Source: a virus (lineage: Duplodnaviria > Heunggongvirae > Uroviricota > Caudoviricetes). From it: DNA of 15,163 nucleotides. Below the pieces are notes generated by a model that worked only from the letters and a program-made list of their open reading frames with translations, did not search any database and was not told the DNA's origin. Numbering within the stretch: position 1 is the stretch's first letter; each line of letters starts with the position of its first letter. The stretch lies in IMG/VR virus record IMGVR_UViG_3300015156_000025, positions 1 to 15,163 of that record; one strand, written 5' to 3'. The position numbers and the translations under genes were made by a program. Below are positions 43 through 15,144 of this stretch, piece after piece.

Positions 43-118
<76 letters not shown>

Positions 119-488: not shown

Positions 489-1031
489 TTATTGGCTTTC
501 TCCGCATAACGCTAATTTCATTGGTATATACAGAATGTGTTCAGCAACACCCAACCATGCATCAATGCGATTTCTGCAAGTTTTCAAGCTCCAGCCAGGG
601 CGATACTTATTTAACTGTTGTGCCATTTTCAGCTTACTCATCCCCCGCCCTTCATATCTTTGTCGGAGGATAAAAATCAATCCTGGGTGTTCTGCCAGCA
701 CTTCACTAATCACACGATCAATGCATAACGCCTCTGCATCATTACAATGCACCAGCCAGCTTTTTTGCTTACCGTTGATCATATCCCGCAAAAAAGCCTC
801 AAGTTCAGGTTTGTCCAGACCTGCTTTTTTCATCCTCCGGAGCGCCTCGTTAATTGCCGTTTTTGTCAGCTTTTTAGAGGTCAGCAACTGGTTGAACATA
901 TTTCCCGTCTTACCGCCGCCAATATACGACCAGCGCCCCCACATGCGCAGTTTGCCCTGAATCCAGACACTTTCCAGCGTGGCGAGACGAAGGTGTTCTC
1001 CGCTTTTTCCTGTATTCGTTGGGTAAATCAC
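489..1031 (-). CDS. Q-family late-gene antiterminator (phage 82/21 QuuD-like class), probable GTG start
   Basis: Supplied ORF 489..1151 contains the motif IQGKLRMWGRW and a later cysteine/acidic segment HCNDAEALCID, which parallel what I recall of DLP12 QuuD (IQMVLERWGAWA; CCDDDAMIICG). A GTG at 1029..1031 overlaps the TGA of the upstream gene and is preceded by AGGAGG. The ATG at 1151 would overlap the upstream gene by 124 nt in another frame. Confidence 0.65.
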   Translation of the reverse strand: MIYPTNTGKSGEHLRLATLESVWIQGKLRMWGRWSYIGGGKTGNMFNQLLTSKKLTKTAINEALRRMKKAGLDKPELEAFLRDMINGKQKSWLVHCNDAEALCIDRVISEVLAEHPGLIFILRQRYEGRGMSKLKMAQQLNKYRPGWSLKTCRNRIDAWLGVAEHILYIPMKLALCGESQ

Positions 1032-1318
1032 AAATATCCCTCCTTTCTCCAGATTTCTTGTGTGCGAAAAACACCTTCTGCATGCATCAGGCGCAATTCT
1101 TCTTTGGTGTAATCGCTGGTTTTTACCCGCCCGTCGATTAAATCGTGGCATGAGCTACAGGCAATTGCCGCCTGCATATCGTGTGGTTTTGTCGCTGTTC
1201 CACACGTCCCCGCCAGCCTGTAATGCGCCAGCACAGAAGTTTCGGGATTGTGATTGCAGTAGCCAGGAATTCTGACGGTGCACATCTGCCCCCGCGCCGC
1301 TTTACGTAAATCCACCAT
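1028..1318 (-). CDS. ybcO: YbcO-like protein (DUF1364, putative nuclease of lambdoid nin regions)
   Basis: 96-aa ORF; MVDLRKAARGQMCTVRIPGYCNHNPETSVLAH...IACSSCHD matches what I recall of DLP12 YbcO (ADLRKAARG..C.VRIPG.CN.NPETSVLAH..IACS.CHD). Its ATG overlaps the upstream stop (TAATG). Confidence 0.8.
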   Translation of the reverse strand: MVDLRKAARGQMCTVRIPGYCNHNPETSVLAHYRLAGTCGTATKPHDMQAAIACSSCHDLIDGRVKTSDYTKEELRLMHAEGVFRTQEIWRKEGYL

Positions 1319-2302: not shown

Positions 2303-2333
2303 CATTAAAATAAAAAACCCGCCGAAGCGGGTT
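2303..2333 (-). terminator. Rho-independent terminator downstream of the hok-like gene
   Basis: On the minus strand, 7-bp stem AACCCGC/GCGGGTT with a UUCG tetraloop (2316..2333), followed by TTTTTTATTTTAATGGG. Confidence 0.75.
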
Positions 2334-2373
2334 ACGTGCGGGTGCGTTGAGGATGCCTGCCACATAAGAGGTG

Positions 2374-2393
2374 GCGAGGGATTTCTCCCTCGC
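2374..2393 (-). other. Perfect 8-bp stem-loop just 3' of the hok-like stop (possible mRNA 3' fold-back or stability element)
   Basis: GCGAGGGA tttc TCCCTCGC, 8 nt downstream of the stop; no T-run follows. Confidence 0.5.
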
Positions 2394-2401
2394 CTGGTCT
2401 C

Positions 2402-2557
2402 TTACTCCTCAGGTTCGTAAGCTGTGAAGACAGCGACCTCCGTCTGGCCGGTTCGGATTCGTACCTCGCAGAGGTCTTTCCTCGTTACCAGTGCCGTCAC
2501 TATGACGGTTAAACAGATGACGATAAGGGCGATTAACATCGCCTTTTGCTGCTTCAT
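2402..2557 (-). CDS. hokD: Hok/Gef-family membrane toxin, hokD (relF)-like, 51 aa
   Basis: MKQQKAMLIALIVICLTVIVTALVTRKDLCEVRIRTGQTEVAVFTAYEPEE has the Hok hydrophobic helix and the conserved C-E-V/I-R core. ATG at 2555..2557 is preceded by AAGGAG at 9-nt spacing. The supplied 70-aa ORF is an in-frame upstream extension. Confidence 0.85.
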   Translation of the reverse strand: MKQQKAMLIALIVICLTVIVTALVTRKDLCEVRIRTGQTEVAVFTAYEPEE

Positions 2558-2910
2558 AGCCTGCTTCTCCTTGCCTTTCGGCACGTAAGAGGCTAACCTA
2601 CATGTGTTCAGCATGGATTGAGCCTCAGATTAATGTTAAGCGTCTTGCAGGACGCGTAATGTTAACTGGGGCTTTTCTCTATCTGCCTTTTGGTGTTCAT
2701 GCCTGAGACAGATAGCCTCAAGCACCCGCAGCAATTCTACTTATGACGCAATTTAATGACAACAACTCTACAGCGGTAGTGTGTTTAACTATTGACATTG
2801 ATTAACTCATTATTCAAAATTTTTGCGTACGCATTAATGATTTTGTGTCGTTGTTGTGATGGTAAAAAAATCACAAACGATCTAACAATAACATAGGTGA
2901 TATTTTCAAT

Positions 2911-4053
2911 ATGGAAATTAAGCAAGTTATCGTTCATGAACTAATTAAAGAAGCAAAAAAGGATTTTGATTTTTCTAAGCCGTATCAGCTTAGATCCACT
3001 CCTCTCGATAAAACCAATCCAATTGTTATAAAACTTATTCAAGACATTTCATCTTTATATGGAACCAAAGGCAATTCTGCACATTATGGCGTTTTTAAAG
3101 AGGAGAAAACAGAACAAGGGCCTGTGCCATCAATATTTGAAGAGTATTCTCAGTCAGAGGATAACATTAATGAAAAGTTTGTGCCTTTTTCTATTGAAGT
3201 GATGAAGCAACTTGTAAAAAAAGCCAAAGAAGAACCTTGGTCATCTGGTGGTTTTATTGTGTTTTGTGACTATATTGTAAATAACAATAAATTCTTTTTA
3301 ATTGCAATGATTAAAAAGAAAAATGGTGTTACTATCAGCAACAAACTCGAACCTGAAGAAATGATCCATTTGGATCTATCCAAAATACACCAAGCAGCAA
3401 GAATAAATTTCAATCTCTACCAACAATATAAAACTGCTGATGAGTCTGAAAAAATTGACTTAAGTTATCTAAGTTTCGTAAGTAAAGGAGTGGGTCAATC
3501 CACATCAGCATATTTTATTGCAGCAATAGGATGCGACAAATCACTTGCAGCAGCAAAAGCCACAAAAAAACTACCAACTGTCGCAAAACAATTTTTTAAC
3601 CAAAAACCAGAACTTAAAGCATGTGCCAATAGATTTAAATATGACGTTATTGCATATTTAGACACACAAGCAGCTAAAAATTTGTCAGCCCGATTGAGTG
3701 ATATTGAAGTAATTGCAGCACGTCACATGACAAATTTAGATGAGTCTACCAAAGAATCTTACACTCACGAATTAATTCTTTTTTTAAATAGTGAAAATGT
3801 GAGAATTCCAACTGAATTTGTTATCAGTAAACGGGCGTTGAAAGACATTAAAAACATCACCTTTAAGACTGATGAGATTGGATTTAATTTTGACAAGTCT
3901 CTCCTTGGAGTGACAGCTGATGATGATGTGTGGTACGATGAAACAACTGGAAGATTATCATTTACAAACTTACCAGCTGAATTTAAGGCTAAACTAAGCG
4001 CTGTGGTAAAAGAAAATTTAAAACTAAGGGATAGTGGAAAAGAAAATGGCTAA
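2911..4053 (+). CDS. Divergent nucleoid-associated protein homologue (YejK/NdpA family), 380 aa
   Basis: Motifs in the supplied translation parallel what I recall of E. coli YejK: QVIVHELIK (QIALHQLIK), AHYGVFKEE (KAYGLFSEE), SGGFIVFCDY (DGGFVLFCHY), YLSFVSKGVGQ (YLTFLKGRVGR). AGGTGA lies 10 nt upstream of the ATG. Confidence 0.7.
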   Translation: MEIKQVIVHELIKEAKKDFDFSKPYQLRSTPLDKTNPIVIKLIQDISSLYGTKGNSAHYGVFKEEKTEQGPVPSIFEEYSQSEDNINEKFVPFSIEVMKQLVKKAKEEPWSSGGFIVFCDYIVNNNKFFLIAMIKKKNGVTISNKLEPEEMIHLDLSKIHQAARINFNLYQQYKTADESEKIDLSYLSFVSKGVGQSTSAYFIAAIGCDKSLAAAKATKKLPTVAKQFFNQKPELKACANRFKYDVIAYLDTQAAKNLSARLSDIEVIAARHMTNLDESTKESYTHELILFLNSENVRIPTEFVISKRALKDIKNITFKTDEIGFNFDKSLLGVTADDDVWYDETTGRLSFTNLPAEFKAKLSAVVKENLKLRDSGKENG

Positions 4054-5266
4054 TTTATCAACGGTTGTAGATTTTTATAGAGCATCATCGAAGCCCCAAT
4101 TCGACGGACGTTCTTTTTCTGCAACTGTTGAAATAAATAATAACAATCAACGTTTGGTAAACTTGTTAGTAAATTCACATAAAGCCTACGGTTATTTTGA
4201 AGATGTTGATATTAATAATGAGTTCATTGACGAAGACGATTTAAAATCACACCCAATTAAAATTGGAGATAAATTCTCATACACTTACATATCCCCTAAA
4301 AATGGAGCAGAACGTTTCTATAACTCAATTCAAGAGTTCCTTTGTATAAACTCACTCAAGAAAGGTGTAATTCCTAAAGAGTATTACATAATCGATGAGG
4401 ATTTTCATCCGTCTGATTCAAGTAAACCGGACGAAATTATAAAAATCGAGAAAATTTGTGCAATTATTTCTTCCCTGGCTGAGATTGCGCACTTTCACGA
4501 TACAAAATCGGAATCTTCAAATTATCGTTTAGTTTTCGTGAAAGATTCTGACGCAAAATCAACATCTATTATTTTAGAAACGTGCATTACACCTAAGATG
4601 CTCAATATAAATGACATTGATGATGCTATCATCAAGAGTCTTTTAGATGTAAAAAACGCCCAAATCCCCCATCAAGCAGAAAAAACAGGTATTTTCAGGA
4701 ATACCATAGTGGAGTTTATTCTCGATAACAAATATGATTTTGAAAACCTAATTTGCCATTGGGATAAATTTGTAAAGCTATTTGAAAATAATTTATCCAC
4801 GTATATGAGTGGTTTTTCATTCCATAAGGCACGAAAAGAAATTGCGAAGTCTGAAGCAGAGTTTGCTGAAAAAATCTCAAAACTTATTACTGATTTGACG
4901 ACAAAAGTATTATCAATCCCTGTGTCTTTACTGGCATCCTTCGGGATTATAAAACTAACATCAAGATCTGAAATGTTACTCGTTTTATTAGGTGTATTGT
5001 TAAGCTCACTTATTTTATATATGGTATTACTCAATCAGGATAAACAATTAAAACATATTTACCATGCTAAAGATATAGCATTTATGCCTTTTCTAAAAAA
5101 CAATGAAAATTATCCAGAAGACCTTAAGAAGGACATTAATGAGGCTTTATATGAACTATCAAAGAGCCAAACCAAATGTGATAATACAATAAAGTTATTT
5201 ATGTATTTGGCTTGGCTACCAAGTTCTATTGCAGCAGGAATATTTCTTGCGAAGATTTTTATTTAG
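4046..5266 (+). CDS. Hypothetical protein with large soluble N-terminal region and C-terminal 2-3 hydrophobic helices (candidate membrane effector)
   Basis: ATG at 4046 overlaps the upstream stop (ATGGCTAA); a GTG at 4034 is the alternative start. Hydrophobic runs VLSIPVSLLASFGIIKL, MLLVLLGVLLSSLILYMVLL and IKLFMYLAWLPSSIAAGIFLAKIFI lie in the last ~120 residues. I recognise no domain in the N-terminal part. Confidence 0.7.
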   Translation: MANLSTVVDFYRASSKPQFDGRSFSATVEINNNNQRLVNLLVNSHKAYGYFEDVDINNEFIDEDDLKSHPIKIGDKFSYTYISPKNGAERFYNSIQEFLCINSLKKGVIPKEYYIIDEDFHPSDSSKPDEIIKIEKICAIISSLAEIAHFHDTKSESSNYRLVFVKDSDAKSTSIILETCITPKMLNINDIDDAIIKSLLDVKNAQIPHQAEKTGIFRNTIVEFILDNKYDFENLICHWDKFVKLFENNLSTYMSGFSFHKARKEIAKSEAEFAEKISKLITDLTTKVLSIPVSLLASFGIIKLTSRSEMLLVLLGVLLSSLILYMVLLNQDKQLKHIYHAKDIAFMPFLKNNENYPEDLKKDINEALYELSKSQTKCDNTIKLFMYLAWLPSSIAAGIFLAKIFI

Positions 5267-5275
5267 CTCTAACAG

Positions 5276-5791
5276 TTAGAGCATTAATACTCCCTCCAAT
5301 ACTCCCATCACTGCTTGTATTTTTTTTCTAATAGTCCCATCCGCACATTTCTTTCTTTTTGCGATCTTTCTCAAAGAAACGCCTATTACAAAGTGGGCAA
5401 CAATTAACTCATATTCATCTATTTTATATTGTCTGAGTCTCAATATCCACTCATCAATCACTCGCCCTTCATCATCGCTGCTCTGGCGACGCAATTTTTT
5501 ACCATGAGGCACAACATCTTTATATTTATCAGCCACTTGCTGCCAGTTGATAGAACTATTTCCAGCTACAGCCCAAGCTCCCCAACAGTCCAAAATATCA
5601 TATATATTAGCATTGCTATCCACCTGTTTTTTATATTCTTTTTTGAAGCGAGCAAGAAGCATCCTGGCCATCGTTATTATTTCTATACTTGTAACTGATT
5701 CATAAGCATCAGGAGAAATAATCCTCCCATCACTTAATGCCCTTTCACTAAGATTTGCTATTTCCAATAATCGTTCTTTAGTTATTTCCAT
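5276..5791 (-). CDS. Second Q-family antiterminator paralogue with about 60-aa N-terminal extension
   Basis: IYDILDCWGAWAVAG and C-terminal CADGTIRKKIQAVMGVLEGVLML parallel what I recall of QuuD (ERWGAWA...CCSDGYIGKRLQKAEGIIEGMLMAL). ATG at 5789..5791 has GGTGGAG 6 nt upstream; the supplied 5803 start is a GTG. Confidence 0.6.
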   Translation of the reverse strand: MEITKERLLEIANLSERALSDGRIISPDAYESVTSIEIITMARMLLARFKKEYKKQVDSNANIYDILDCWGAWAVAGNSSINWQQVADKYKDVVPHGKKLRRQSSDDEGRVIDEWILRLRQYKIDEYELIVAHFVIGVSLRKIAKRKKCADGTIRKKIQAVMGVLEGVLML

Positions 5792-5951
5792 TATTATCTC
5801 CACCGCCCTTTCGGGCAGCCTCCTGATGATTTGAGGGTGCAGGAATTCCTCCGGTTAAGGACTCTATTTTATTCACAGTGCTGAATTTAATTATTCAGAT
5901 TTGGATTATGCTTTCTCTTTCACTTCACCAAGTTCCGATTGTTAATTTGGC

Positions 5952-6374
5952 TCACAACATCACCTTCTGAAAATTACCCTGATAGAACGCCAGCACACGC
6001 TGCATAACCTTGCTTTTCCGGCACTCGCGACAGATTATGTTCTGGCTCCTGTCGTAGCGGCGTATTTCTCCGCCTGGTAATGACCAGATAAGGTCCGGAT
6101 CAACCACAGATAGTTTCTTCACCTTTGCCCTAGATAGTTTTTTGCGGGCATTTTGCCAATCCTTACGAGCCTGTTCAGACGGGAATAACCCGTAACCAGA
6201 GTTGTATACATCGCCACTGGCAACCAGCTCTCTGGCGAGAACGCTCATCAGATATCTTGTCGCACCTGTCTTGGCTTCCAGTTGCCGTAACGTCTCGCGC
6301 CCACTCCGGCGTACTAGCTCAACAACCTGCCCTTTAATTTTTTCCCGCTCTTCTTGTGTAAATACTTTTGCCAT
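5952..6374 (-). CDS. Hypothetical phage protein with probable winged-helix region
   Basis: ORF with ATG at 6372..6374 preceded by GGAGG (supplied 6389 start is a TTG). Helix-turn-helix-like stretch TLRQLEAKTGATRYLMSVLARELV. Its stop abuts the upstream gene. Confidence 0.55.
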   Translation of the reverse strand: MAKVFTQEEREKIKGQVVELVRRSGRETLRQLEAKTGATRYLMSVLARELVASGDVYNSGYGLFPSEQARKDWQNARKKLSRAKVKKLSVVDPDLIWSLPGGEIRRYDRSQNIICRECRKSKVMQRVLAFYQGNFQKVML

Positions 6375-6389
6375 AAGCGCCTCCGGCAA

Positions 6390-7151
6390 TCACTTTTCCG
6401 ATACAACACGGCGGGAAGAATCAGTAATCTGTCGAACAATATCCCGGTGCTTGTTCAGCTCCCGCAGCGCGGCGCAGACTCGCTCCCACTTCTGGACATG
6501 ATTTTTCGCCCGACGCAGTTCGCGGTTTGCCATATGCAGCGATGGCAAAATCAGGTCATCAGCTCGCGTTTCAGTAAACGATGGCAGCGACTGCACAATG
6601 TCCGCCACAGTCTCTGTTTTAATATCTTCCTGTGTTGCAGCTTCCTGTACTGGTAACGCAACGCATGCAGGCTGAGGAAAGGCTTTACCATCAGTTTCCG
6701 CTACCGATGCTGCTTTCGGCTCTGCTGGTAAATTATCGCCCGGCATACAGTAACGAAATTTACCGTCCTGATTAGCACGAATCAGACGGCCTTTGCTGAT
6801 TGCCATTGCCAGCGTTGAAGCCACTTTGCGGGATGTTGTACCGAACAGCGTAGCCAGTTCATCCGCCGTTTGTGGTCCGCGTTGTTCAATCGTCGCGGTT
6901 AAATCGCACTCTGAGATTTTCGCTACTGTCGCCGTGGTGGTTTCTTCCGGCTGTTCTTCTGGCGCTGGCTGTTCCTGCTGAACGTTGTTATCAACCACAC
7001 GCCAGGTGTATACGCTTTTATCAACGAAGCCAGCCTTTTTCAGTTCCCACAGCTCGTTCAGTACTTCTTCACGACTGATATCAAGTCGCGCAGCCAGCTC
7101 TACCGACGTGGCTTTTCCCATCGCTTTCAGTGCGTCAAAAACAGTCTCCAT
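6390..7151 (-). CDS. Hypothetical phage DNA-binding protein (two winged-helix-like regions)
   Basis: 253-aa ORF; [30 protein letters not shown] and [33 protein letters not shown] both look like wHTH motifs. It lies between the DnaC-like gene and the nin-like genes. Confidence 0.55.
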
Positions 7152-7924: not shown

Positions 7925-9061
7925 TTACCCCCTGAAGCCTGGCGGGATCGCACTGTCCGGCAACGAGACGGTGTTAACCTGTCGGAGCAACGTCTCAGGC
8001 CGAACACCTTTCGGCGCGAACAGGCCCTGGTATTCATTGGCGATGCTGTGTCGAATCACCTGCTCAGGTGTAAAACCCTGCTGACGGAATTTTTCCAGTT
8101 CCCGTATCGCCCCGTTAGCGCCCTGCTCCGTTCGAATCGGTTTTCGCAATGCCTGTCTGAACCGGACCCACTCATGCCAGAGTGTTTCCGGCAACCAGTC
8201 GGGCAGATCAACAGACAACGGGTCAAATTTTTTCTGGCGAACAGCCCCACCGATAACCAGAATTCCCTGCTCGGTGTGCCTTGCGATATCACTGCGCCGC
8301 AAGACACATATCCCGGTTTCAACAGCACCGATTTTGAGCAGTGATTTCTGTCGCGGAGAATTTCGGTCAAGCTCGATCCCACACCGAACACCGTTCCTGT
8401 CAGTCACGACGATATCAATCCGCCCTCCGCAGCCGTCACCACGCTCTGGCACCGGATACTCACGACAGACATCCAGGCCAGCAGCCTGCAACGCAACCAC
8501 CGCAGAATTACAAAATTCCGCTGCAGTACCGCCAGATAATCTCCCCTCAAGCACTCCAGCCACAAAATCCCGGAACTCCCTTCCGGAAGGGAAGGGTTTG
8601 GGATGGGTTAGATCAGTATTTAGATCTTCCTCTTCCTCTTCCTCTTCCTCTGGTAACGCTTTTTGATCCGTTTGTGTAACGCCGACAGCGTTACCTTTTC
8701 GTTTCAGTTCACGTATTTTTGTAACTCGCTCGTTTGTAACCGCCCGTTTTTTAGAGCTTTTTCCGTTATGGCGTTCAAAGTTAGGTAGAGAAAGCCCAAC
8801 GTCATTTTCGACCAGCCATCCAACCTGAATTAACGCATCAGCAAAACCAGCCATAAAAGTGATGCGATCTATTGCACTTTTTGTAACGCCGCGAGTGTTA
8901 CAATCTGCATTACCGTCTATCATTTGTTGATCCGCCCATGCCCAGAAGCGAATAACCTTCCCTAATGCGGCATCTGGATCAATATTCAGAATCTCAGCAA
9001 GCCTGAATATTTCCGGCTTATCCGGCGTAATAACCTCTAGCTTTATCCAGTTTGAAGCCAT
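7925..9061 (-). CDS. ydaU: Phage replication initiation protein, YdaU/DUF1376-like, with poly-Glu linker and extra central domain
   Basis: 378-aa ORF immediately upstream of the DnaC-like gene; AGGTGA 6 nt before the ATG. N-terminal part (MASNWIKLEVITPDKPEIFRLAEILN...) reads as the phage replication-protein N-terminal fold by recollection. Confidence 0.7.
   Translation of the reverse strand: MASNWIKLEVITPDKPEIFRLAEILNIDPDAALGKVIRFWAWADQQMIDGNADCNTRGVTKSAIDRITFMAGFADALIQVGWLVENDVGLSLPNFERHNGKSSKKRAVTNERVTKIRELKRKGNAVGVTQTDQKALPEEEEEEEEDLNTDLTHPKPFPSGREFRDFVAGVLEGRLSGGTAAEFCNSAVVALQAAGLDVCREYPVPERGDGCGGRIDIVVTDRNGVRCGIELDRNSPRQKSLLKIGAVETGICVLRRSDIARHTEQGILVIGGAVRQKKFDPLSVDLPDWLPETLWHEWVRFRQALRKPIRTEQGANGAIRELEKFRQQGFTPEQVIRHSIANEYQGLFAPKGVRPETLLRQVNTVSLPDSAIPPGFRG
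8625..8650 (-). repeat. Hexanucleotide repeat (TCTTCC)x4 encoding an E8 tract in the ydaU-like protein
   Basis: tcttcctcttcctcttcctcttcctc on the plus strand; translates as PEEEEEEEED on the minus strand. Confidence 0.9.
8676..8694. repeat. Iteron-like inverted repeat GTAACGC-n5-GCGTTAC inside the ydaU-like gene
   Basis: gtaacgc cgaca gcgttac; related half-sites at 8653..8660 (gtaacgct), 8721..8729 and 8737..8745 in a T-rich stretch. Confidence 0.45.
8882..8902. repeat. Iteron-like inverted repeat TGTAAC-n9-GTTACA inside the ydaU-like gene
   Basis: tgtaac gccgcgagt gttaca; shares the TGTAACGC core with the sites at 8676 and 9074. Confidence 0.4.
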
Positions 9062-12051: not shown

Positions 12052-15000
12052 ATGAGCACAAAACCACTCTTCCTTTTACGGAAAGCGAAAAAATCATCCG
12101 GTGAACCTGACGTCGTCCTGTGGGCAAGCGACGATTTTGAATCAACCTGTGCCACTCTGGACTACCTGATCGTTAAGTCAGGTAAAAAACTGAGCAACTA
12201 TTTTAAAGCTGTTGCCACAAATTTTCCTGTCGTTAATGAACTTCCCCCTGAAGGTGAGATCGATTTTACCTGGTGTGAACGCTATCAACTCAGCAAAGAC
12301 TCCATGACCTGGGAACTAAAACCGGGAGCAGCGCCAGACGACGTTCACCATCAGGAGGATGCACAGGAAACCGAAGAACCGACGGGAGGCCAGGAAGAAA
12401 ACGCGCAGGCAGACGCCCACGAGGATTGCCAGGATTGCGAAGTCTCTGTAGCCACTTTGCGGTTCACACAGCGTCTTCTGCACATTTTTACGTATGCAGC
12501 CGGGGATCGAAAATACCTGCATCATGCCACCCGTGAACAACGCAAACACATTACTGCTCTTGAGATGGATCAGGAAAACAGCTATGTCCAGAATCTGCTG
12601 TTGGCCATACGCAGCATGGCAGAACCGACAACTCTGGATAATGCCGCCCTGCTCCGCCTGACTGATGCAATTAAGGCAGTGTTCTCTATCACGAAAAAAC
12701 ATCAGCCCTATGAATTTAAGAATTTCATTTCAGCCTGGCTGGATACCGAACACATTGATCGCGGTCTTCTGACAAAAGAATGGCGAAAAGGGAATCGTGT
12801 TTCACGCATCACTCGCACGGCTTCCGGTGCTAATGCTGGCGGCGGGAACCTCACCGATCGCGGCGAAGGTTTCGTCCACGATCTGACGTCACTGGCGCGC
12901 GATGTAGCCACTGGCGTACTGGCCCGTTCAATGGACGTGGACATCTATAACCTTCATCCGGCACACGCTAAACGCATTGAGGAAATTATCGCTGAAAATA
13001 AACCGCCCTTTTCTGTTTTCCGCGACAAATTCATCACCATGCCTGGCGGGCTGGATTATTCCCGCGCCATCGTGGTTGCGTCCGTGAAAGAAGCACCAAT
13101 AGGGATCGAGGTCATCCCCGCACACGTCACTGAATATCTGAACAAAGTACTGACTGAAACCGATCATGCCAACCCTGATCCGGAAATCGTGGATATTGCC
13201 TGCGGTCGTTCCTCTGCCCCGATGCCGCAGCGTGTAACAGAAGAAGAAAAACAGGATGATGAAGAAAAACTGCAACCATCTTGCGCAATGGCAGATGAAC
13301 AGGCAACGGCTGAAACAGTGGAACCGGATGCAACTGAACATCATCAGGACACGCAGCCGCTGGATGCTCAGTCACAGGTAAATTCTGTTGATGCGAAATA
13401 TCAGGAACTGCGGGCAGAACTCCATGAAGCCCGGAAAAACATTCCATCAAAAAATCCTGTCGATGCCGATAAATTACTTGCTGCATCACGTGGTGAATTT
13501 GTTGACGGAATTAGCGACCCGAACGATCCGAAATGGGTTAAGGGGATCCAGACTCGCGATTCTGTGTACCAGAACCAGCCAGAAACGGGAAAAACCAGCC
13601 CGGATGTGAAACAACCTGAGCCAGTAGTGCAACAGGAACCGGAAATAGTCTGCAATGCCTGCGGTCAGACTGGCGGAGATAACTGCCCTGACTGTGGGGC
13701 GGTGATGGGCGACGCAACATACCAGGAAACATTCGATGAAGAGAATCAGGTTGAAGCTAAGGAAAAAGATCCGGTGGAAATGGAAGGCGCTGAACATCCG
13801 CACAATGAGAATGCTGGCAGCGATCCGCATCGTGATTGCAGTGATGAAACTGGTGAAGCGTCAGCTCCTGTAGCAACTGAAATCATGTGGCCGTCATATT
13901 TCGAGCCTGGCCGCTATGAAAACCTCCCGAACGAGGTTTATCACTCCGCCAACGGAATAAGCAGCACGATGCTGAAGGATGCCCGTATCAGCCTGATGTA
14001 TTACCACGGACGGCACATTGCCGGAACTATTCCGAACGAGGAAAGTGATGCACTGCTGCGTGGGCGGATCATTCACAGCTATGTTCTGGAAACGGATAAA
14101 TTCGCTGATGAATATGCCATTCCGGTACCGGTTCCTGAATATGTGGTTACTACTTCTAGCGAACTGATCGCCATCATTAAAAAACACAATGCCAGTCTGC
14201 CAGCACTGATGACACCAGAGCAGATGAAAGAGTGGATCGAAAGCTACAACAGCACTCTTATACAGCCACTGTCTGTAAGTGCCGGGGCCGAAGAAACAGG
14301 CATCCTTTACGGTTCGCTTCCGGTGGAGTTTCGGCGTATTCCTGAGGGGGAAAAACACACAGCATCAGCAATGAAAGCCTGTATTAAAGAATACAACGCA
14401 AGCCTCCCTCCTCTGTTGAAAACCAGTGGAGCACGGGAGCAGCTTCTGGATCAAATTGAAACTGTAGACCCAGAACTGGCAAAAAAAGAACGTGCTAAAT
14501 CTTTGCCTTACAACATCAGTGGCACAAAAGAGCAATTAACCGAAATCGCACGGAAAATTCGCCCGGAACTGGTGACACTGGAGGACTGGCAAAAACGCCA
14601 GCAAGAAGAAAATGCCGGGAAAACGTTTATCAGTCCGGATATGTATGAACAGGCAAAAAATATTCACGCGGCACTGCAAAACAATACCGATGCAGCAAGG
14701 CTACTCAACCACCCGGATCGCAAATCTGAAATCAGCTATTTCGGGTTTGATGAAGAAACCGGGCTGGAAATCAGGGTCCGTCCTGATATCGAAATCCGGC
14801 TGCCATACGAAAGCATTTGCGCTGACGTGAAGTCAGTCAGCCTCGGTTATGTGCGACAGGAACGACTTAAAGATCGCCTGCACCGTGAAATTATTGAGCG
14901 TGATTATCACCTCAGCGCCGCAATGTATTGCGATGTGGCAAACCTGGACAAATTTTTCTGGATCTTCGTCAACAAAGATGCTGGCTATCACTGGGTGGTA

Positions 15001-15144
15001 GTCGTGGAAGCCTCGCAGGAACTCCTGGAACTTGGTCGACAGGAATATCGCCGGACGCTACGCCAGATAAACGAAGCCATGGAGACAAACAACTGGCCAG
15101 CACCGATTACCGAAAGTTATACAGATCGGAAGAGCGTCGTGTAG
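12052..15144 (+). CDS. recE: RecE-family exonuclease VIII, mosaic long variant (1030 aa)
   Basis: N-terminus [26 protein letters not shown] and the central region ([40 protein letters not shown]... through the CxxC...CxxC zinc-ribbon-like motif) match K-12 RecE as I recall it. The C-terminal nuclease region is divergent and longer. Confidence 0.9.

What the first reader, a model, noticed from the sequence alone, without database searches (positions are those of the whole stretch)
4046..5266. Large protein with unrecognised N-terminal domain and C-terminal 2-3 hydrophobic helices
The last ~120 residues contain hydrophobic runs long enough to span a membrane; the preceding ~285 residues are hydrophilic and carry no motif I recognise. 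The architecture resembles membrane-disrupting effectors, but that is inference from layout only.
Basis: inference. Interest (0 to 1): 0.65.

Follow-up and report, generated by a model that had tools for sequence, protein, structure and literature searches.

The report
Prophage anti-phage pair: nucleoid sensor, membrane effector
The flagged gene is real and encodes the membrane-anchored half of a two-gene prophage cassette whose distant relatives (DS-1, and by layout type II PANGU) were shown in 2025-2026 to protect E. coli from phages, so it is a divergent, still unannotated member of a very recently described defence family.

Summary
The ORF at 4046-5266 (406 aa) has about 285 hydrophilic, mildly acidic residues followed by three hydrophobic segments (aa 286-304, 310-329, 384-406), and these segments are conserved across 178 relatives.

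The ORF overlaps by 8 nt an upstream gene at 2911-4053 that encodes a YejK/NA37 nucleoid-associated protein (Pfam 4e-51). A homologue of that gene lies directly upstream in all 30 related loci examined, in 3-4 of them as pseudogene fragments.

Both proteins match NCBIfam's models for DS-1, a two-gene anti-phage system validated by DefensePredictor (Science 2026). The matches are 4e-30 and 1e-28, far below the equivalog cut-offs, with about 27% identity.

The layout is also that of type II PANGU (bioRxiv 2026): a NAP sensor that leaves the nucleoid during T4 infection, plus an effector with an acidic N-domain and a TM C-terminus.

The pair forms a low-GC cargo (2744-5296) in a variable slot between hok/sok and a Q-like gene of a lambdoid prophage. 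Relatives sit in other prophage moron sites.

Verdict: a new, divergent member of a known kind. Membrane disruption itself remains inferred. Interest is moderate.

The parts
2744..5296 (+). Variable cargo segment (about 33% GC in a roughly 50% GC prophage). It holds the whole two-gene cassette, between conserved hok/sok and Q-like flanks.
   Evidence: GC profile. BLASTN against an E. coli prophage with a different cargo aligns only window 2307-2743 and 5297-6395. The alternative cargo there is a DUF6731 protein plus a hypothetical protein.
2792..2820 (+). Sigma-70-like promoter candidate for the operon (TTGACA-17-CAAAAT), about 90 nt upstream of gene A.
   Evidence: 10 of 12 matches. This is a consensus match only: the number of sites in the region is no higher than in shuffles, so the evidence is weak.
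2911..4053 (+). Gene A: a 380-aa YejK-like nucleoid-associated protein (NA37), the proposed sensor.
   Evidence: Pfam NA37 4.1e-51, 174.7 bits, residues 7-358. phrog_3767 1e-72. NCBIfam DS1_1_antiphage 1.4e-28 and YejK 3.9e-40, both below cut-off. Matches solved YejK 9be2_A over its full length at 4e-14. RefSeq names it 'nucleoid-associated protein'.
4046..5266 (+). Gene B (the finding): a 406-aa membrane-anchored protein, the proposed effector. Its start overlaps the stop of gene A by 8 nt.
   Evidence: phrog_5023 7e-70. NCBIfam DS1_2_antiphage 4.2e-30, residues 89-391 against model positions 31-329 of 337. BLASTP to DS-1B gives 27% identity over 162 aa, 1e-14.
4046..4900 (+). Gene B residues 1-285: the cytoplasmic N-terminal region. 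It has an alpha/beta domain (about aa 1-180) and a helical part (aa 183-288), and is mildly acidic.
4901..5032 (+). Gene B residues 286-329: a hydrophobic helical hairpin. TM1 is aa 286-304, a short loop TSRSE follows, and TM2 is aa 310-329.
   Evidence: The invariant P292 and G316 lie here.
5033..5194 (+). Gene B residues 330-383: a helical loop, predicted to be cytoplasmic from its net positive charge.
   Evidence: Family mean charge is +2.1 here against -0.9 for the TM1-TM2 loop. Helices 307-351 and 358-388 in the model.
5195..5263 (+). Gene B residues 384-406: the third hydrophobic segment (TM3), with the nearly invariant W390 and the invariant P392.

Best explanation
Genes A (2911-4053) and B (4046-5266) form a two-gene anti-phage cassette carried as a moron by a lambdoid prophage. 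It belongs to the superfamily that contains DS-1 and has the architecture of type II PANGU.

Proposed mechanism. Steps 1-2 rest on sequence analysis here. Steps 3-5 are inferred from the published relatives.
1. Gene A is a YejK-like nucleoid-associated protein that sits on the host chromosome in uninfected cells.
2. Gene B sits in the inner membrane through three C-terminal helices, with its roughly 285-residue acidic N-terminal region in the cytoplasm.
3. An infecting phage degrades or remodels the nucleoid, and protein A is released.
4. Free A binds the acidic N-terminal region of B, as measured for Pag2A and the Pag2B N-domain (KD 19 nM).
5. Binding switches the membrane part of B into a toxic state, most likely by oligomerisation with loss of membrane integrity or potential. 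The infected cell stops growing and the phage does not spread (abortive infection).
For: Homology to a validated system.
- Both proteins hit NCBIfam's DS-1 models (NF053869 4.2e-30; NF053868 1.4e-28).
- All 34 aligned family members hit NF053869.
- DS-1 (WP_000355468.1 + WP_000150292.1) reduced plating of Bas1 (7.6 logs), Bas26, Bas3, T3 and T5 (PMC13092281).
- B is co-linear with DS-1B, including the TM segments.

Architecture.
- A is NA37 (4e-51).
- B has a mildly acidic N-region and three conserved hydrophobic segments. This is the layout described for Pag2A/Pag2B.
- In that system both genes were required, neither was toxic alone, defence was abortive, and Pag2A-GFP left the nucleoid on T4 infection.

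Obligate pairing.
- A homologue of A lies directly upstream on the same strand in all 30 related loci examined; in 3-4 of them one or both genes are fragmented or interrupted.
- These include 23 loci from a scan of species-representative genomes: Enterobacterales, Pseudomonas, Vibrio and one CPR MAG.
- Spacing between the two genes is -26 to +39 nt.

Context.
- The pair is low-GC cargo in a variable slot.
- Relatives sit between Q and the holin of a lambdoid prophage, in a P2-like prophage between ogr and gpD, and next to a TacAT toxin-antitoxin pair.
- The cassette is transcribed opposite to the neighbouring phage genes and has a promoter-like site of its own.
Against: - No experiment exists for this clade. 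Similarity to DS-1 is remote (27% over 162 aa; 105 bits against a cut-off of 315), and DS-1B is equally distant from all 150 best family representatives, so function is extrapolated across a deep split.
- Gene A lacks the N-terminal zinc ribbon of DS-1A.
- I could not compare with Pag2B, because its sequence is not in the held text.
- The N-region is only mildly acidic (-10 over 285 aa), which is weak support for a DNA mimic.
- Membrane damage is not shown even for the published systems, and there is no significant fold match to pore formers.
- PADLOC 2023 models find nothing.
- Flanks of relatives are mostly prophage and housekeeping genes rather than classical defence islands.
Confidence: 0.7

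Rival explanations
1. The pair is a constitutively acting superinfection-exclusion or addiction module. B would be a membrane toxin or entry blocker, and A its cytoplasmic antitoxin or regulator. There would be no sensing of nucleoid damage.
For: It has a two-gene overlapping layout, sits next to hok/sok, and a relative lies next to a TacAT toxin-antitoxin pair. The alternative cargo in the same slot also pairs a soluble protein with a small membrane protein that has faint RexB similarity (E 0.0015).
Against: For type II PANGU, neither gene alone nor the pair was toxic, and both were needed for defence, so A behaves as an activator or sensor rather than an antitoxin. A is a full-length NA37 protein related to chromosomal YejK, not a typical small labile antitoxin.
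Confidence: 0.12
2. The pair serves the prophage's own life cycle. It might tether phage or host DNA to the membrane for replication or segregation, or act as an accessory lysis or holin-like function under Q control.
For: It is recurrently adjacent to a Q antiterminator gene and close to lysis genes. A DNA-binding protein is paired with a membrane protein.
Against: It is transcribed opposite to Q and the late genes. The same pair occurs in a P2-like prophage, in a non-phage chromosomal island, and on Pseudomonas plasmids as distant homologues of B only. Other prophages of the same type carry a different cargo in this slot, so it is dispensable. There is no holin family hit.
Confidence: 0.06
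3. B is an enzyme anchored to the membrane, using conserved His/Asp/Lys residues in its N-region. It would kill through a catalytic activity rather than by perturbing the membrane.
For: There are motifs invariant or nearly invariant within the close family: A148-H149-x-H151-D152, H209-x-x-E212-K213, and F257-S-F-H260-K261.
Against: Across the wider 178-sequence alignment, the columns with at least 80% identity are mainly hydrophobic or structural. Of the polar motif residues only H209 and K261 remain; H149, H151 and D152 do not. No enzyme family or fold is matched.
Confidence: 0.07

Closest known systems
DS-1 (DefensePredictor system D390: WP_000355468.1 YejK-domain protein + WP_000150292.1; NCBIfam NF053868/NF053869)
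   Same: It is a two-gene operon with the NA37 protein first and a roughly 400-aa protein with C-terminal hydrophobic helices second. Both window proteins match the DS-1 profiles significantly and co-linearly. DS-1 was found in E. coli, and the system is experimentally anti-phage.
   Different: It is a separate clade: 27% and 26% identity over partial alignments, and scores about one third of the equivalog cut-offs. Window gene A has no N-terminal zinc ribbon. The phage range of the window system is unknown.
Type II PANGU (Pag2A NAP sensor + Pag2B TM effector; bioRxiv 10.64898/2026.04.06.716658)
   Same: It is a bicistronic operon of a YejK-like NAP plus a protein with an acidic N-terminal domain and a C-terminal TM domain. 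It comes from E. coli and has a wide, inter-phylum distribution. This is the best available working model for the mechanism.
   Different: Sequence relationship could not be tested, so the window pair may be the same cluster or a sister of it. The acidity of the window N-region is modest. The authors state that the Pag2B activation step and its effect on the membrane are still unknown.
Type I PANGU (Pag1A + GRel toxSAS Pag1B)
   Same: It uses the same kind of NAP sensor and the same proposed logic: release from the nucleoid, then binding of an acidic domain on the effector.
   Different: The effector is a soluble alarmone synthetase, not a membrane protein. There is no toxSAS domain in the window.
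Housekeeping YejK (NdpA) of E. coli, PDB 9be2
   Same: Gene A shares the full-length NA37 fold family.
   Different: Gene A scores 138 bits against the YejK equivalog cut-off of 341. It is prophage cargo with a dedicated partner gene.
Two-component abortive systems with a membrane effector (lambda RexAB, CBASS/Pycsar TM effectors, Kiwa KwaAB)
   Same: The functional analogy is a cytoplasmic sensor plus a membrane protein, prophage-borne in the case of RexAB.
   Different: No sequence or profile similarity: PADLOC gave 0 hits for A and B. The sensor type is different.

Membership tests
DS-1 protein 2 (NCBIfam NF053869, equivalog) | Whole-protein score at or above the curated cut-off (315 bits) | tested here: not met
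   105.1 bits, E 4.2e-30. No family member does much better: the best E-value among the 34 is 4.8e-32.
DS-1 protein 2 (NCBIfam NF053869, equivalog) | Significant, co-linear homology over most of the model | tested here: met
   Residues 89-391 against model positions 31-329 of 337. BLASTP to DS-1B gives 1e-14. Co-linear in the MSA, including the TM segments.
DS-1 system | NA37/YejK-domain protein encoded immediately upstream in the same operon | tested here: met
   Gene A is NA37 at 4e-51, with an 8-nt overlap with gene B. The same arrangement holds in all 30 related loci examined, some with pseudogenised genes.
DS-1 system | N-terminal zinc ribbon (CxxC...CxxC) on the NAP protein, as in WP_000355468.1 | tested here: not met
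   The NA37 match of gene A begins at residue 7, and the sequence has no N-terminal Cys pairs. DS-1A has NA37 at residues 42-382 after a Cys-rich N-terminus.
DS-1 system | Reduces phage plating when expressed in E. coli | not testable with these tools
   Shown only for DS-1 itself.
Type II PANGU | Bicistronic operon with a YejK-like NAP gene plus an effector gene | tested here: met
Type II PANGU | Effector with a C-terminal transmembrane domain | tested here: met
   Three conserved hydrophobic segments at aa 286-304, 310-329 and 384-406, helical in the AF2 model. No dedicated topology predictor was available.
Type II PANGU | Effector N-terminal 'DMK' domain with a densely acidic, DNA-like surface | tested here: inconclusive
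   Net charge -10, pI 5.3 over aa 1-285. Family median is -12 and the 178-sequence column mean is about -14.
Type II PANGU | Sequence homology to Pag2A/Pag2B of PANGU-Ecu | not testable with these tools
   No sequences or accessions are in the held text, and no supplements are held.
Type II PANGU | Both genes required, abortive phenotype, NAP leaves the nucleoid on infection, NAP binds the effector N-domain | not testable with these tools
   Reported for PANGU-Ecu only.
NA37 / YejK family (gene A) | Pfam PF04245 gathering score | tested here: met
   174.7 bits against 24.6.
Housekeeping YejK equivalog (NF001557) | Score at or above 341 bits | tested here: not met
   138.1 bits.
Alpha-pore-forming toxins (ClyA/AhlB/MakA) or CorA-like channels | Significant structural similarity | tested here: not met
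Known defence families in PADLOC-DB 2.0 (2023) | Any profile match | tested here: not met
   0 families for A and B at E <= 1.

The most novel reading that the evidence does not exclude
The window pair represents a third, experimentally untouched lineage of NAP-plus-membrane-effector immunity. The family has at least 118 clusters at 50% identity with E <= 1e-30 and 651 with E <= 1e-3.

Its effector would combine a cytoplasmic domain of a fold with no solved relative with a 3-helix membrane module. It would work as a new kind of gated membrane killer, switched on when a chromosome-bound protein is set free by nucleoid destruction.

Because this lineage lacks the DS-1 zinc ribbon and is deeply split from DS-1, it may respond to a different trigger or phage range.
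Probability: 0.35. Interest if true: 0.6.

Novelty: new member of a known kind. Interest (0 to 1): 0.42.

Why it matters
NAP-based immunity, in which a chromosome-bound protein acts as sentinel of genome integrity, was described only in 2025-2026. For the membrane-effector type, the activation step and the killing mechanism are explicitly unsolved.

This cassette is compact and natively E. coli, with its own promoter region. Its family is sizeable and strictly pairs the two genes, and RefSeq still labels gene B 'hypothetical protein'. That makes it a ready test case for three questions:
- how a released nucleoid protein gates a membrane effector;
- what fold the N-domain has;
- whether prophage moron slots such as hok/sok-to-Q are general reservoirs of such systems.

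It also shows that the current NCBIfam equivalog models miss most of the superfamily.

Tried and rejected
- Pfam and PADLOC on gene B gave no hits.
- PDB sequence searches with the protein and with a 34-sequence profile found nothing below E 0.1.
- The afdb50 library was unavailable.
- I looked for the window's RefSeq accessions in the DefensePredictor tables and did not find them. Those tables are truncated in the held copy, so this is uninformative.
- I tried to obtain Pag2B sequences or accessions from the PANGU preprint, but none are held.
- The correlation of A and B similarity across loci (r = 0.93) is reported but not used as proof of co-evolution, because shared phylogeny alone would produce it.
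- The promoter and terminator scan found no more sites than in shuffles for promoters. The terminator-like site at 5234-5250 lies inside the CDS, so both are treated as weak.
- I considered a holin or lysis role and a catalytic N-domain, and rejected both for the reasons given under the rival explanations.
Full report
**The observation**

The window is part of a lambdoid prophage of E. coli. On the minus strand it carries replication, ren-like, NinB, HNH and two Q-type antiterminator genes. Its GC content is about 50%, except for a stretch of 32-35% GC at roughly 2500-5900.

Inside that stretch, on the plus strand, lie two long ORFs: 2911-4053 (380 aa) and 4034/4046-5266. The flagged ORF is real. 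The ATG at 4046 gives 406 aa. That start agrees with the N-termini of 33 aligned homologues and with RefSeq's call in a 99.5% identical copy.

A Kyte-Doolittle scan finds three hydrophobic segments at aa 286-304, 310-329 (maximum 2.83) and 384-406. Only 4 of 1000 shuffles reach that maximum. The same three segments are hydrophobic in the column averages of a 178-sequence family alignment.

The first 285 residues are hydrophilic and mildly acidic, with net charge -10 and pI 5.3. They hit nothing in Pfam, PADLOC or the PDB sequence set.

The gene is the second cistron of an operon. Its ATG overlaps the stop of the upstream gene in the sequence ATGGCTAA.

The upstream product is a full-length NA37 (YejK-type) nucleoid-associated protein:
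- Pfam 4.1e-51.
- phrog 'nucleoid associated protein' 1e-72.
- A full-length match to the solved YejK 9be2 at 4e-14.

It is not the housekeeping YejK, scoring 138 bits against an equivalog cut-off of 341.

**Link to known systems**

NCBIfam gives the key lead. Gene B matches NF053869 'DS1_2_antiphage' (4.2e-30, residues 89-391 on model positions 31-329 of 337). Gene A matches NF053868 'DS1_1 nucleoid-associated anti-phage protein' (1.4e-28). Both are far below the curated cut-offs of 315 and 330 bits.

DS-1 is a system validated in the DefensePredictor study (PMC13092281). It consists of WP_000355468.1 (391 aa, zinc ribbon plus YejK domain) and WP_000150292.1 (404 aa 'hypothetical'). It was cloned with its native promoter in MG1655. 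In the screen table it reduced plating of Bas1 by 7.6 logs, Bas26 by 2.7, Bas3 and T3 by 1.7 and T5 by 1.0. That paper lists the YejK domain as newly implicated in defence and does not study the mechanism.

Direct BLASTP gives 27% identity over 162 aa (1e-14) between gene B and DS-1B, and 26% over 144 aa (1e-8) between gene A and DS-1A. In a family alignment the two B proteins are co-linear through the hydrophobic segments, with 70 of 367 aligned positions identical.

A second source is the preprint 10.64898/2026.04.06.716658, which describes 'PANGU' systems. Type II PANGU is a YejK-like NAP (Pag2A) plus a transmembrane effector (Pag2B). The effector's N-terminal domain is acidic and DNA-mimicking, and its C-terminus is transmembrane. 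The preprint reports:
- both genes are needed for defence;
- neither gene is toxic;
- defence against T4 is abortive;
- Pag2A-GFP leaves the nucleoid on infection;
- the N-domain binds Pag2A with a KD of 19 nM;
- how Pag2B is activated 'remains to be determined'.

The window pair has exactly this layout. I could not test sequence identity with Pag2A/B because no sequences are held.

**The family**

A word-indexed search found 47 clusters at 90% identity, almost all from Enterobacterales, all about 400 aa, and none with Pfam domains. An exhaustive HMMER search of 1.84 billion representatives found 651 clusters at 50% identity at E <= 1e-3, and 118 at E <= 1e-30. Nearly all are 400-430 aa and match end to end.

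All 34 aligned members hit the DS1_2 model, with a best E-value of only 4.8e-32. DS-1B is about equally distant (45-55 bits) from all of the best 150 representatives. The window protein therefore belongs to a large clade that is a sister to DS-1, not to DS-1 itself.

Gene order is strictly conserved. I examined 30 related loci: 23 from a scan of one genome per species, 6 contigs from three encoding-contig look-ups, and 1 E. coli chromosome. The genome scan covered Xenorhabdus, Proteus, Shigella, Pectobacterium, Providencia, Ewingella, Pantoea, Pseudomonas, Vibrio, an unclassified Enterobacterales MAG and one Moraniibacteriota MAG. In every locus a homologue of gene A lies directly upstream on the same strand, though in 3-4 loci one or both genes are fragmented or interrupted. 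The spacing is -26 to +39 nt. Similarity of A and of B to the window proteins falls in parallel (r = 0.93), although common descent alone would give that.

**Genomic context**

Comparison with E. coli prophages that carry a different insert shows that only window 2307-2743 (hok/sok) and 5297-6395 (Q-like and ren-like genes) are shared. So 2744-5296 is an exchangeable cargo. The alternative cargo is a DUF6731 protein plus a small membrane protein.

The exact cassette occurs in 4 of 5426 complete E. coli genomes, in a different prophage backbone. A 40%-identical variant occurs in 6 more.

Relatives sit in three other settings:
- between Q and the holin of a lambdoid prophage;
- in a P2-like prophage between ogr and gpD;
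- in a chromosomal island beside a TacAT toxin-antitoxin pair that interrupts a sulfatase gene.

Flanks of the genome-scan loci are rich in DUF968, Q, NinB/NinG, lysis genes and phage methyltransferases. The cassette is transcribed opposite to the neighbouring phage genes and has a sigma-70-like site about 90 nt upstream (weak evidence). All of this is what one expects of a prophage-borne defence moron.

**Structure**

AlphaFold2 with the 34-sequence alignment gives a confident model (mean pLDDT 86.5). Its elements are:
- an alpha/beta domain (about aa 1-180);
- a helical region ending in a long helix (aa 239-288);
- a helical hairpin (aa 290-303 and 307-351) that contains TM1 and TM2;
- a further helix (aa 358-388);
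- a terminal helix (aa 391-405, TM3).

The loop after TM2 is net positive in the family and the TM1-TM2 loop is slightly negative. This fits an N-in, C-out topology (inference by the positive-inside rule).

**Most likely mechanism**

Shown here:
- a YejK-type DNA-binding protein and a membrane-anchored partner with a mildly acidic cytoplasmic region are encoded together as an obligate pair;
- the pair is horizontally mobile;
- it is homologous to a validated anti-phage system.

Inferred from the PANGU work: protein A coats the chromosome. When an infecting phage degrades the nucleoid, A is freed and binds the acidic N-region of B. That switches the three-helix membrane module into a toxic state, and the infection aborts.

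I put about 0.8 on 'anti-phage two-gene system of this superfamily' and about 0.5 on the specific chain of events, giving 0.7 overall. Membrane damage is the least supported step, since no such assay appears even in the published work.

**Rivals**

- A constitutive exclusion or toxin-antitoxin module (0.12). This is disfavoured because the homologous-architecture system is non-toxic and needs both genes.
- A role in the prophage's own replication or lysis (0.06). This is disfavoured by the opposite orientation, the occurrence outside lambdoid phages and the exchangeability of the slot.
- A catalytic N-domain (0.07). It is suggested by the conserved AHxHD, HxxEK and FSFHK motifs in the close family. 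It is weakened because most of these polar residues are not conserved in the wider family and no enzyme fold is found.

**Novelty and verdict**

The kind of system is already known, though only since 2025-2026. This copy belongs to a deep sister clade that fails the NCBIfam equivalog thresholds, lacks the DS-1 zinc ribbon, is absent from PADLOC 2023 and is annotated 'hypothetical protein'. I therefore file it as a new member of a known kind.

It is a good experimental handle on an open question, namely how a released nucleoid protein gates a membrane effector. A specialist would not find it very surprising. Interest: 0.42.

Noticed in passing
window 2402-2727 (-): A complete hok/sok type I toxin-antitoxin locus lies immediately upstream of the cassette. 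The Rfam sok match is 118.9 bits at 2552-2727, and a Hok-like ORF lies at 2402-2614. RefSeq annotates hokD at the same place in the related prophage.
   Followed up: partly
window 2744-5296; L009 3144-4851: The interval between hok/sok and the Q-like gene is an exchangeable cargo slot. Many E. coli prophages carry a DUF6731 protein (304 aa) plus a 159-aa membrane protein there, the latter with only faint RexB similarity (PADLOC E 0.0015). That is another soluble-plus-membrane pair and a possible uncharacterised defence candidate.
   Followed up: partly
window 5276-5803 (-) and 489-1151 (-): The window holds two Q-family antiterminator genes. The first (PF06530, 5e-29) has lower GC than the prophage backbone and is convergent with gene B, only 9 nt beyond its stop. 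It is conserved beside both kinds of cargo. Homologues of gene B in other lambdoid prophages also abut a Q gene (L001, L012, L013, L015).
   Followed up: partly
L019 (MAG Candidatus Moraniibacteriota, JAUSNP010000006.1) 2879-5224: A complete A+B pair, 40% and 32% identical to the window proteins, sits on a 330-kb contig assigned to a CPR bacterium. This is far from the otherwise gammaproteobacterial distribution. It could be real inter-phylum transfer or a binning error.
   Followed up: no
L021 (Shigella flexneri CP182557.1) and L029 (Pantoea symbiont of Euschistus servus): In these genomes both genes of the pair are broken into fragments, i.e. pseudogenised copies. This is consistent with decay in host-restricted lineages.
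   Followed up: no
L004/L005 3747-10137: A variant of the pair together with a TacA/TacT (GNAT) toxin-antitoxin pair lies between two pieces of a sulfatase-family gene. The layout suggests a small island inserted into that gene.
   Followed up: no
L007 3322-8352: In a P2-like prophage the pair sits between ogr/delta and gpD, preceded on the same strand by a DUF6037 gene and a 112-aa gene. These may belong to the same cargo.
   Followed up: no
window 12052-15144 (+): A 1030-aa ORF with long acidic, low-complexity stretches. Part of it (13462-13825) matches at 77% a gene annotated 'exonuclease' in the related prophage (L008 21307-23787). It was not analysed further.
   Followed up: no
window 46-118 (-): A tRNA gene (Rfam 55.6 bits) lies at the left edge of the window, downstream of the second Q gene, as in lambdoid prophages that carry tRNA genes before the lysis cassette.
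   Followed up: no
window 7925-9061 (-): The replication-initiator-like protein carries a run of eight or more glutamates in its middle (EEEEEEEED). It was not examined.
   Followed up: no
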